NCBI RefSeq assembly: GCF_057098645.1
Contig: NZ_CM169472.1
Direction: 5' to 3' (one strand)
Length of the DNA stretch: 64,000 bases
Position 1 is the first letter of the stretch; each line of letters begins with the position of its first letter. Made by a program: the position numbers. Shown piece by piece: positions 1-3,000 of the stretch.

Positions 1-3000
1 GGGGAAAACTGCGCCGCAATGTGGTGGTCCTTTCCCGGTGCTCCCGCGATGGCGGGATGGAATCCGGTGTGCATATCCGGGGTGTTAATCCGGACACCGG
101 TAACAGCGATAACACCATGAAGGCGGATAACCCGCGCAATGCTTTCTACTGGCGGTTTGTGGAAATGGGGACCGTGAATATGCCACCGCACCCGTTTGTG
201 CGCCCGGCATTTGATGTGCGCAGTGAACAGGCGGCACAGGTGGCGATTGCTCGGATGAACCGGGCCATTGATGAGGTACTGAGACGATGACGGAGGCGGA
301 TTTGTATCCTCATCTGGCACATCTTGCCGGCGGGCAGGTGTACCCGTATGTGGTCCCCCTGCTGGATGGCAGGCCGTCGGTGGCGCTTCCGTGGGTGGTT
401 TTCAGCCTGATTTCATCGGTGTCGGCGGACGTGATGGGCGGGCAGGCGGAGTCCTCAGTGTCGGTGCAGATAGACGTTTATGCCGGGACTGTGACGCAGG
501 CGCGTCAGATACGTCAGGACGCCCGTGAAGCCATAATGCTGCTGGCCCCGGGAGCCGTCAGTGAAATGCAGAGCTATATTCCGGAAAACCGCTGTTACCG
601 TGCAACCCTGGAGTTTCAGGTCACGGTGTAATTTTTTCAACAGAACCCATAACCCGCCGCGTGCGGGTTTTTTATTATCAGGAGGCAGAATGTCTGCTTT
701 GTATGAACGTTCACAGCTGACGCAGGTGATGATTTCATCTGCCCCGGCGACTGCTGAAACCATGGAGAAGGCGGAATATCTGCGCCTGGACTGCACCATC
801 AAGGAAGTCCAGTTCACCGCCGGTCAGAAACAGGATATTGATGTGACCACGCTCTGCTCCACAGAGCAGGAGAACATCAACGGTCTGGGGGCGTCGTCCG
901 AGATTTCCATGTCGGGTAATTTTTATCTGAATCAGGCCCAGAACGCCCTGCGTGATGCCTATGACAATGACACGGTGTATGCGTTTAAGGTGCAGTTTCC
1001 GTCCGGTAAGGGCTTTAAGTTCCTGGCGGAAGTGCGTCAGCACACCTGGTCATCCGGTACCAACGGCGTGGTGGCTGCAACGTTTTCACTTCGCCTGAAG
1101 GGTAAACCGGTGTCCTATGTGGTACCGCTGGCGTTTGTGAAAAATCCGGAGAAGACACTTACCGTGAATACCGGTGCGCTGCTGACAATGTCAGTCAGTG
1201 TCAACGGGGGAACGCCGCCTTATAAATACGCCTGGAAGAAGGATGGTCAGCCGGTCGAGGGACAGACTACTGACACTTTCAGTAAAGCCAATGCGCAGTC
1301 AGGTGATAAGGGGGCTTATACCTGCATGGTAATGGATTCTGCAGAACAGCCGCAGAGCATTACCTCTGATGCGTGTACGGTAACGGTTAATGGTGCGGGC
1401 GGATAAGGCTTATGGCAAAAGATCTGAAAACACTGGCGCTGGCCAGACTGTCGGGGTTCCGTCATAAAACGGTGAAGGTGCCGGAATGGAGAAATGTCAG
1501 CGTGGTGCTGCGGGAGCCTTCGGCAGAGGCCTGGTATCTGTGGCAGGAAGTGCTCAATGGTGATGGAGAGGATGACGATACCCTGTCGGTGGTGGCGAAA
1601 ACCCGCCGTAACCTGGAAGCGGATGTGACGCTGTTCTGCGATGTCCTGTGTGATACTGACCTGCAACGGGTGTTCACTCCGGACGACCGTGAGCAGGTGC
1701 TGGCCGTCTATGGTCCGGTACATGCCCGGTTGCTGCGTCAGGCACTGGAACTGATCGCTGATGCAGAGTCGGCCAGAAAAAAGTAGCCCGCCCGGAAATT
1801 CGCTTTCTGATGCGACTTGCGCTCCGTCTGGGGCGCACCTTATCCGAACTGCGGCACAGCCTGAGTGCGAGCGAGGCGATGATGTGGATGGAGTTCGACA
1901 GGGTATCCCCGCTGGGTGATGAGCGCGGGGATATCCGTAATGCACAGATCGTGAAAGCGGTTTTCGGGGCACAGGGGATGAATGTTGCACTGAAGGACGC
2001 CATGCTCTGCTGGGGCGAGGATGAGGATAAGCCGGAGGTGGATCCGTTTGCGGCGCTGGAAGACGCGCTGAGCCTTGCAGCAATGTCATAAATAATGATG
2101 AAAACCTGCTGTGGCAGGTTTTTTTTGCCCGGAGAAAGGTGAATGGCGACGTTACGTGAACTGATTATCAAAATTTCGGCAAATTCACAGTCATTCCAGT
2201 CGGAGATCCAGCGGGCGTCCCGTATGGGCAGTGAATATTACCGGACCCTGCAGAATGGCGGACGTCAGGCTGCTGCGGCAGCCAGGGAGCAGCGCCGGGC
2301 TCTGGCTGAGCTGCACAGCCAGTTGACGGAAATCCGCGCTTCGGCTGTCGGAATGACCGGTGCGTTTGCCGGTGCCTTTGCCACCGGACACCTGATTTCG
2401 CTGGCGGATGAATGGAGCTCCGTGAATGCCCGTCTGAAACAGGCGTCGCAGTCATCGGATGAATTTGCGTCATCACAGAAAGTGCTGATGGATATCAGCC
2501 AGCGGACAGGCACCGCATTTTCGGATAATGCGGCCCTGTTTGCCCGTTCGGCTGCCTCGATGCGTGAATATGGTTACAGTGCTGATGATGTGCTGAAGGT
2601 GACGGAGGCCATTTCGACAGGGCTGAAAATCTCCGGTGCCAGTACGGCAGAGGCGGGCTCGGTGATCACCCAGTTCAGTCAGGCGCTGGCGCAGGGTGTA
2701 TTGCGTGGTGAGGAGTTTAATTCGGTCAATGAAAGTGGTGACCGGATCGTACGTGCACTGGCTGCGGGTATGGGCGTGGCCCGTAAAGATCTGAAGGCAA
2801 TGGCGGATGACGGAAAACTGACAGCGGATAAAGTGGTCCCCGCGTTAATCAGCCAGCTGGGGATATTACGTGATGAATATGCGGCCATGCCGGAAACGGT
2901 TTCCAGTAGTATCACGAAGGTGGAAAACGCCTTTATGGCCTGGGTGGGCGGTGCGAATGAGGCCAGCGGGGTGACAAAAACGCTCTCCGGCATGCTGAAC

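What the first reader, a model, noticed from the sequence alone, without database searches (positions are those of the whole stretch)
1777..1783. Conserved G/G-T programmed -1 frameshift site (A AAA AAG)
The slippery heptamer lies three codons before the G stop, and the -1 frame is open through the downstream T ORF to 2091. This reproduces the conserved tail-chaperone frameshift of long-tailed phages and indicates this part of the tail module is intact.
Basis: partly seen in the sequence, partly recalled or inferred. Interest (0 to 1): 0.3.

Follow-up and report, generated by a model that had tools for sequence, protein, structure and literature searches.

The report
Known phage tail-chaperone G/GT frameshift site
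This is the ordinary, already-documented ribosomal "slip-back-one-base" signal that lets a lambda/HK97-like prophage of pathogenic E. coli make a short and a long version of its tail-assembly chaperone; this exact sequence was measured at about 7% frameshifting in a 2013 study.

Summary
A AAA AAG sits at 1777-1783, in register with a 124-codon ORF (1412-1786). That ORF is a Phage_TAC_1 tail assembly chaperone (HK97 gp13 type, the lambda G analogue). One correction: the TAG stop (1784-1786) abuts the heptamer; it is not three codons away. The -1 frame is open from 1762 to 2091 and carries a Phage_tail_T domain.

The pair lies between the major tail gene and the tape-measure gene, as in lambda and HK97. 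Ten relatives with G 31-100% identical keep a -1 extension of about 100 codons. All ten have an in-register A-AAG or A-AAA slip codon at the homologous position, although the full heptamer varies.

An identical 75-nt cassette (window 1757-1831) was tested by Antonov et al. 2013 (NAR, Suppl. Table S2, cluster Phage_TAC). It gave 7% +/- 0.79 frameshifting in E. coli.

I found no upstream SD-like or properly spaced downstream RNA stimulator. The annotated T start (ATG 1810) has no better anti-SD pairing than background.

Verdict: a real -1 programmed frameshift giving G (124 aa) and GT (226 aa), and already known. The one practical point is that the RefSeq and GenBank records examined annotate G and T as separate genes. 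Interest is low.

The parts
1412..1786 (+). G-like tail assembly chaperone ORF (124 aa), the zero-frame product
   Evidence: ORF list and translation. Pfam PF06222 Phage_TAC_1, E 2.3e-61, full length 1-124/124. Start has a moderate SD (-5.8 kcal/mol).
1777..1783 (+). Slippery heptamer A AAA AAG in X XXY YYZ register
   Evidence: Read directly. Only in-register copy in 3,702 tail-gene codons. Identical in 79 of 80 close IMG/VR relatives. Lies inside the cassette shown to frameshift at 7%.
1784..1786 (+). Zero-frame TAG stop of G, directly 3' of the heptamer (possible 'shifty stop' context)
   Evidence: The same arrangement, heptamer followed directly by TAG, occurs in phi467 and Vibrio phage Pm34. 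Its contribution to slippage was not tested.
1783..2091 (+). -1 frame extension (102 codons plus stop) that forms the T part of GT; the first codon after the slip is GTA at 1783
   Evidence: -1 frame open 1762-2091. Fusion junction ...SARKK|VARPEIRFLMRLALRLGRT aligns colinearly with HK97 and eight other relatives.
1864..2073 (+). Phage_tail_T domain (PF06223), residues 152-221 of the 226-aa fusion
   Evidence: Pfam on the fusion: PF06222 at 1-124 and PF06223 at 152-221, E 2.7e-18. Lambda T hits the same family.
1810..1812 (+). ATG used as the 'T' start in public annotation; most likely an internal Met codon of GT
   Evidence: RefSeq and GenBank annotate T from this ATG. Anti-SD pairing is -3.5 kcal/mol, against a background median of -3.7 and -5.8 to -10.3 for neighbouring genes. 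The -1 frame residues upstream of it are conserved, and KS9 has no Met there.
690..1406 (+). Major tail (tube) protein with C-terminal Ig domain; upstream neighbour that defines the synteny
   Evidence: Pfam tail-tube and Ig hits; annotated as major tail subunit in homologous records.
2143..5385 (+). Tape measure protein; downstream neighbour that defines the synteny
   Evidence: Pfam Phage_HK97_TLTM 7.5e-91, TMP_3 and Tape_meas_lam_C.

Best explanation

Most ribosomes translate 1412-1783 and stop at TAG 1784, giving G (124 aa). A minority, about 7% for this sequence in a reporter, slip back one base. This happens while the AAA (1778-1780) and AAG (1781-1783) codons hold tRNA-Lys. The two tRNAs re-pair with AAA AAA (1777-1782), and decoding continues with GTA at 1783 through to 2091. 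The product is GT (226 aa), made of G plus a T domain.

The step from sequence to fusion product is shown by published data on an identical cassette. The tandem tRNA-Lys slippage is inferred from the heptamer and from established knowledge of A AAA AAG sites: E. coli has one tRNA-Lys, anticodon mnm5s2UUU, which pairs weakly with AAG.

The roles are inferred from lambda. G and the G part of GT coat the tape-measure protein. The T part recruits the major tail protein. The fixed G:GT ratio is needed for tail assembly, and neither protein ends up in the virion.
For: - Register and open -1 frame.
- Families: G is PF06222 and T is PF06223. The fusion carries both domains in order.
- Synteny: major tail - G - T - tape measure.
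- Relatives: HK97, HK544 and KS9 homologues are annotated as joined -1 frameshift CDSs.
- Conservation: ten relatives with G 31-100% identical keep a -1 extension of about 100 codons, and all have an in-register A-AAG or A-AAA at the homologous alignment column.
- Coding upstream of the annotated T start: -1 frame residues before ATG 1810 are conserved (P-x-x-x-F-L-M), and KS9 has no Met.
- Weak T start: anti-SD pairing is -3.5 kcal/mol, no better than background.
- Direct experiment: Antonov et al. 2013, PMC3711429, Suppl. Table S2, cluster Phage_TAC, fs-gene 15618692. The insert is identical to window 1757-1831 and gave 7% +/- 0.79 frameshifting in E. coli. A G GGA AAG relative gave 6%.
- Function: the G/GT roles in lambda are summarised in Atkins et al. 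2016, PMC5009743.
Against: - No stimulatory element was found. There is no SD-like sequence upstream of the heptamer (-3.0 kcal/mol). Downstream folding is not significant (z = -1.54). The only stable hairpin (1818-1837) lies 35 nt away.
- The reporter assay does not by itself separate ribosomal from transcriptional slippage.
- It used a cassette, not the native phage mRNA.
- No GT protein has been shown for this prophage.
- Every public record examined for this allele annotates T as a separate gene. The 226-aa fusion is absent from a collection of about 15 billion proteins.
Confidence: 0.93

Rival explanations
1. T is made as a free 93-aa protein by independent initiation, or by termination-reinitiation coupling, at ATG 1810, as public annotation implies. 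On this reading the heptamer is incidental.
For: An ATG lies 24 nt after the G stop, and the Met is conserved in 9 of 10 relatives. RefSeq and GenBank records annotate T this way. The 93-aa protein is recorded on at least 1000 contigs.
Against: - The anti-SD pairing of the ATG (-3.5 kcal/mol) equals the background median.
- The -1 frame is conserved as coding sequence upstream of the ATG, and KS9 lacks the Met.
- The slip codon is conserved at the same column in all relatives.
- The cassette gives a fusion product at 7%.
- Phage_TAC is not among the clusters for which Antonov et al. report internal initiation.
- It could still occur alongside frameshifting.
Confidence: 0.05
2. Transcriptional slippage: RNA polymerase adds one extra A in the A6 run (A6 to A7). 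A fraction of mRNAs then encode the same K-K-V-A-R fusion, with no ribosomal slip.
For: A one-A insertion would give exactly the same protein. Homopolymeric A runs are known slippage sites. The reporter assay does not separate the two routes. A natural A5 variant in L037 shows the run is prone to indels.
Against: - Six A's is shorter than the runs linked to programmed transcriptional realignment (An with n > 7, as quoted).
- Relatives keep the arrangement with only 3-4 A's: G GGA AAG, G GAA AAG and A GCA AAG.
- The G GGA AAG cassette frameshifts about as well, at 6%. This points to a shared ribosomal A-AAG slip.
Confidence: 0.02

Closest known systems
Phage HK97 gp13 / gp13-14 fusion (tail assembly chaperone, annotated -1 frameshift; NC_002167 7472..8145)
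   Same: - Same Pfam family for G (PF06222); G is about 63% identical in the HK97-like phages found by tblastn (HK446, HK544).
- Same gene order.
- -1 extension of about 100 codons.
- The slip Lys codon falls in the homologous alignment column.
- The fusion is 224 aa against 226 aa here.

   Different: - HK97 has the non-canonical G GAA AAG, 15 nt before the G stop. Here the site is a canonical A AAA AAG that abuts the stop.
- HK97 carries the moron gp15 between T and the tape-measure gene. Here that interval holds only a terminator-like hairpin, 2101-2122.
Phage lambda G / GT (Levin, Hendrix & Casjens 1993; Xu, Hendrix & Duda 2004, 2013, 2014)
   Same: - Position between the major tail and tape-measure genes.
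- -1 shift near the 3' end of G.
- T domain in the same Pfam family, PF06223.
- Low efficiency with a large excess of G (30:1 in lambda; 7% here).
   Different: - G belongs to a different Pfam family: PF06894 in lambda, PF06222 here.
- BLASTP finds no significant similarity for either G (best E 6.5) or T.
- From my own knowledge, the lambda heptamer is G GGA AAG. That form occurs here in the relatives mEp390 and ECP1.
E. coli dnaX tau/gamma frameshift
   Same: Identical slippery heptamer A AAA AAG, read by the same tRNA-Lys.
   Different: - dnaX has an upstream SD-like stimulator and a downstream hairpin, and reaches about 50%. Neither element is detectable here, and efficiency is 7%.
- The dnaX shift truncates the protein. 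Here the shift extends it.
IS3-family orfA-orfB frameshift (IS2 copy in this same window, 23486-23492, minus strand)
   Same: In-register A AAA AAG and a -1 shift that fuses two ORFs.
   Different: It is a transposase, not a chaperone. The shift site is not next to the orfA stop.

Membership tests
Long-tailed phage G/GT tail assembly chaperone with programmed frameshift (Xu et al. 2004 definition) | Two overlapping ORFs lying directly between the major tail protein gene and the tape measure gene | tested here: met
   V 690-1406, G 1412-1786, T frame 1762-2091, H 2143-5385.
Long-tailed phage G/GT tail assembly chaperone with programmed frameshift (Xu et al. 2004 definition) | [quoted passage not shown] | tested here: met
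   A AAA AAG at 1777-1783 within the 25-nt overlap, 0 nt from the stop.
Long-tailed phage G/GT tail assembly chaperone with programmed frameshift (Xu et al. 2004 definition) | The arrangement (overlap, shifted frame, slip site) is conserved in relatives even though sequences diverge | tested here: met
   Ten lineages with G 31-100% identical keep the -1 extension. All have an in-register A-AAG or A-AAA at the same alignment column, with four different heptamer types.
Long-tailed phage G/GT tail assembly chaperone with programmed frameshift (Xu et al. 2004 definition) | The downstream ORF lacks its own efficient translation start | tested here: inconclusive
   An ATG exists at 1810, but its anti-SD pairing is only at background level. 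KS9 lacks the Met. Independent initiation is not excluded by sequence alone.
Long-tailed phage G/GT tail assembly chaperone with programmed frameshift (Xu et al. 2004 definition) | A fusion product is made at a low, fixed fraction of the short product | not testable with these tools
   Not measurable here. Published for an identical 75-nt cassette: 7% +/- 0.79 in an E. coli GST-MBP reporter (PMC3711429).
Pfam PF06222 Phage_TAC_1 (HK97 gp13-like chaperone) | Score above the gathering threshold over the full-length profile | tested here: met
   205.6 bits against a cutoff of 25; profile positions 1-124 of 124.
Pfam PF06223 Phage_tail_T | Score above the gathering threshold in the -1 frame extension | tested here: met
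   69.1 bits (ORF from ATG 1810) and 66.6 bits (fusion), against a cutoff of 25.9. Lambda T matches the same family.
dnaX-type stimulated A AAA AAG frameshift | An upstream SD-like element about 10 nt 5' of the heptamer, plus a stable hairpin 5-9 nt 3' of it | tested here: not met
   Upstream anti-SD pairing is -3.0 kcal/mol. Downstream fold has z = -1.54. The nearest stable hairpin starts 35 nt 3' of the heptamer.

The most novel reading that the evidence does not exclude
The TAG stop codon that directly abuts the heptamer may itself act as the stimulator, a 'shifty stop'. This arrangement is shared with phi467 and Vibrio phage Pm34. Klebsiella phage 1 LV-2017 shows a reduced form, A GCA AAG TAA, with only a 10-nt overlap. 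If so, slow RF1-dependent termination would give a single P-site tRNA-Lys time to slip, and the G:GT ratio in this sub-lineage would depend on release-factor availability rather than being fixed by the heptamer alone. Nothing here tests this. It would be a modest mechanistic variant of a known system.
Probability: 0.12. Interest if true: 0.3.

Novelty: already known. Interest (0 to 1): 0.08.

Why it matters
Scientifically it adds little. The G/GT frameshift is a textbook feature of long-tailed phages, and this exact cassette has already been measured.

Its value is practical:
- It marks the tail module of this effector-carrying EHEC prophage as apparently functional in its coding.
- It exposes a systematic annotation gap. 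The RefSeq and GenBank records inspected list G and T as two separate genes, and the same sequence occurs in 1,245 complete E. coli genomes. The predicted 226-aa GT protein is absent from a collection of about 15 billion proteins.

Tried and rejected
- **Downstream RNA stimulator.** Folding 1784-1860 gave z = -1.54. The only stable hairpin (1818-1837) is 35 nt from the site and lies in the conserved LALRLGR codons. It is lost in ECP1 and Klebsiella phage 1 LV-2017 without compensatory changes. I rejected it as a demonstrated stimulator.
- **Upstream SD-like stimulator.** None found.
- **Close relatives as a conservation test.** The 80 IMG/VR loci are 98-100% identical in G, so they carry no information on conservation. 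I used divergent GenBank phages instead.
- **Sequence similarity to lambda G and T.** BLASTP found nothing significant: no alignment for T and a best E of 6.5 for G. Only the Pfam T family links them.
- **A public record of the exact fusion protein.** Not found.
- **Xu et al. 2004.** The paper is not in the held library, so I cite it only through the Atkins review and from memory.
- **Structure prediction and large homology searches.** Not run, because they could not change the verdict.

Full report
**1. What is in the sequence**

Positions 1775-1786 read AGA AAA AAG TAG in the frame of an ATG-initiated ORF, 1412..1786, of 124 codons. The reported heptamer 1777-1783 is therefore A AAA AAG in the canonical X XXY YYZ register.

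One detail of the finding is wrong. The TAG stop (1784-1786) follows the heptamer directly rather than lying three codons further on.

The -1 frame has a TGA at 1759-1761. It is then open from 1762 to the stop at 2089-2091, with no stop between 1783 and 1810. The two frames overlap by only 25 nt, and the heptamer fills the 3' end of that overlap.

**2. Is it more than chance**

AAAAAAG occurs 26 times on both strands of the 64-kb window, against 13.7 expected. In the correct codon register, however, it occurs only once in 3,702 codons of nine + strand tail genes, and that copy is this one. Any in-register X XXY YYZ occurs at 0.4% per codon. An 8-codon overlap would carry some canonical heptamer about 3% of the time, and this particular one about 0.2% of the time.

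**3. What the genes are**

- The upstream ORF is a full-length Phage_TAC_1 chaperone (PF06222, E 2e-61).
- The -1 frame carries a Phage_tail_T domain (PF06223, E 5e-19).
- The neighbours are a tail-tube protein with an Ig domain (690-1406) and an HK97-type tape-measure protein (2143-5385). These are followed by M- and L-like minor tail proteins.
- Further downstream are K-, I- and J-like proteins, then Lom and tail-fibre genes, and then the effector genes nleL, espN and espK.

The window starts inside a lambdoid, effector-carrying prophage of enterohaemorrhagic E. coli. The 901-nt region around the site is 100% identical in O157:H7, O145:H28 and O111 chromosomes. It is 99.3-99.9% identical in the top-listed Stx-converting phages and at least 95% in all 92 matching phage records.

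A modelled fusion joins G residues 1-124 to the -1 frame from GTA at 1783. It is 226 aa and carries both Pfam domains in order.

**4. Comparative evidence**

The 80 IMG/VR relatives are 98-100% identical in G. Of these, 79 keep the same 51-nt context, which is uninformative. One (L037) has A5 in place of A6.

I therefore took divergent GenBank phages from a tblastn search, with G down to 31% identical. All keep a -1 extension of 91-102 codons. Their slip sites are:

| Slip site | Phages |
|---|---|
| A AAA AAG | this window, phi467, Vibrio phage Pm34, Burkholderia phi1026b, Bordetella PHB09 |
| G GGA AAG | mEp390, ECP1 |
| A AAA AAA | KS9 |
| G GAA AAG (non-canonical) | HK97, HK544, LAU1, ENT39118 |
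| A GCA AAG followed directly by TAA | Klebsiella phage 1 LV-2017 |

The common element is a Lys codon preceded by A, which allows AAG to re-pair as AAA. In an alignment of the modelled fusions it falls in the same column. An in-register A-AAG lies in the last 15 codons of G in 9 of 10 lineages, against a background of 0.58% per codon.

The -1 frame residues between the slip site and the annotated T start are conserved (P-x-x-x-F-L-M). KS9 has no Met there at all. The region upstream of ATG 1810 is therefore coding, and in at least one relative T cannot start independently.

The HK97, HK544 and KS9 records annotate the homologous pair as a joined -1 frameshift CDS.

**5. Direct experimental evidence already exists**

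Antonov et al. 2013 (Nucleic Acids Res 41:6514, PMC3711429) predicted a 'phage tail assembly chaperone' cluster of 41 frameshifted genes similar to an HK97 protein. They tested two members in an E. coli GST-MBP reporter and found 6% and 7% frameshifting.

This string matches window 1757-1831 exactly. The second insert carries G GGA AAG CCG TAA, as in mEp390 and ECP1, and gave 6%. Phage_TAC is not among the clusters for which the authors also report internal initiation.

**6. Mechanism**

*Shown:* an identical cassette yields a -1 fusion product at about 7% in E. coli.

*Inferred from the heptamer and established knowledge:* tRNA-Lys in the P site (AAA, 1778-1780) and in the A site (AAG, 1781-1783) slip together onto AAA AAA (1777-1782). 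The next codon read is GTA at 1783. E. coli has a single tRNA-Lys, and its modified anticodon pairs poorly with AAG. This is why A AAA AAG is especially shifty (dnaX and IS elements; the lambda figure legend).

I found no dnaX-type stimulators:
- Anti-SD pairing upstream of the site is -3.0 kcal/mol.
- The downstream fold is not significant, z = -1.54.
- The only stable hairpin (1818-1837) starts 35 nt downstream. It lies in the conserved LALRLGR codons and is lost in two relatives without compensation.

The abutting TAG could help by slowing the A site. A P-site-only slip with TAG in the A site would give the same protein. This was not tested.

*Function, inferred from lambda* (Atkins et al. 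2016 review of Levin 1993 and Xu 2004/2013/2014):
- G and the G part of GT bind the tape-measure protein.
- The T part recruits the major tail protein.
- The G:GT ratio is critical for tail assembly.
- Neither protein is in the virion.

**7. Rivals**

*Independent initiation at ATG 1810.* This is what RefSeq and GenBank imply. It is disfavoured by the background-level SD of the ATG: -3.5 kcal/mol, against a background median of -3.7 and -5.8 to -10.3 for neighbouring genes. The coding conservation upstream of the ATG, the Met-less KS9 and the reporter data also argue against it. It may still occur at a low level alongside the frameshift.

*Transcriptional slippage (A6 to A7).* This would give the same protein. 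However, six A's is short for that mechanism. Relatives with only 3-4 A's keep the arrangement, and one of them frameshifts equally well.

**8. Comparison with known systems, and novelty**

This is a member of the HK97 gp13/gp14 branch of the G/GT tail-chaperone frameshift family.

- It differs from HK97 itself in its heptamer and in lacking the gp15 moron.
- It differs from lambda in the family of the G moiety. The two show no BLAST similarity, and lambda G is PF06894. They share the T family.
- It shares its heptamer with dnaX but lacks the dnaX stimulators.

Nothing is new here: the phenomenon, the family and this exact sequence are all published.

The only gap is in annotation. The records inspected list G and T as separate CDSs. 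The 226-aa fusion is absent from a collection of about 15 billion proteins, while G and T each appear on at least 1000 contigs.

**9. Verdict**

The feature is already known, and interest is low (0.08).

Noticed in passing
window 23486-23492 (minus strand); orfB ORF 22581-23486 (-): A second in-register A AAA AAG lies in the orfA frame of an IS2 (IS3-family) copy (...GCA AAA AAG TGG...), at the point where orfB opens. This is the IS element's own -1 programmed frameshift site. The homologous RefSeq feature is annotated 'programmed frameshift'.
   Followed up: partly
window 651-669 and 2101-2122: Terminator-like GC hairpins followed by T runs bracket the V-G-T block. One lies between the tail-completion gene and V, the other between T and the tape-measure gene. 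The HK97 record annotates putative terminators at the equivalent places, but here there is no moron gene between T and H.
   Followed up: partly
window 6434-8092: Three non-tail genes are inserted between the L-like and K-like tail genes: two Arc-family ribbon-helix-helix genes on opposite strands, and a Bro-N/P22_AR_C antirepressor-like gene. This is a moron-like insertion inside the tail operon.
   Followed up: partly
L037 (IMGVR_UViG_2537562191_000024), about 2866-2877: One otherwise near-identical relative has A5 in place of A6 in the heptamer (AGAAAAAGTAG). This throws G into the third frame. It is either a sequencing error or a natural inactivating indel at the homopolymer.
   Followed up: partly
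window 1818-1837: A stable local hairpin, GCGCUCC-GUCU-GGGGCGC (-14.3 kcal/mol), lies in the codons for the conserved LALRLGR motif of T, 35 nt 3' of the slip site. It is present in most enteric relatives. It is broken in ECP1 and Klebsiella phage 1 LV-2017 without compensatory changes, so it is probably a by-product of the coding sequence.
   Followed up: yes
L084 (HK97) 1335-1341; L089 (Klebsiella phage 1 LV-2017) 1181-1190: HK97, HK544, LAU1 and ENT39118 have G GAA AAG in register. This is not a canonical X XXY YYZ heptamer, because the P-site GAA would re-pair with GGA. The Klebsiella phage has only A GCA AAG TAA in a 10-nt overlap. Both suggest that single tRNA-Lys A-AAG slippage is enough in this family.
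   Followed up: partly
window 1412-2091; public records L001, L002, L096: The RefSeq (PGAP) and GenBank records inspected for this allele annotate G and T as two separate CDSs with no ribosomal slippage. The same 901-nt region occurs in 1,245 complete E. coli genomes. The predicted 226-aa GT fusion is not in a collection of about 15 billion proteins.
   Followed up: yes
window 15698-26044: Type III effector genes lie just beyond the tail-fibre genes: nleL (15698-18046), espN (18637-22038, an uninterrupted 1133-codon ORF here but with an internal stop in strain 493/89) and espK (24683-26044, minus strand). They are mixed with IS2 and effector-gene fragments, which is a typical EHEC effector 'exchangeable locus'.
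   Followed up: no
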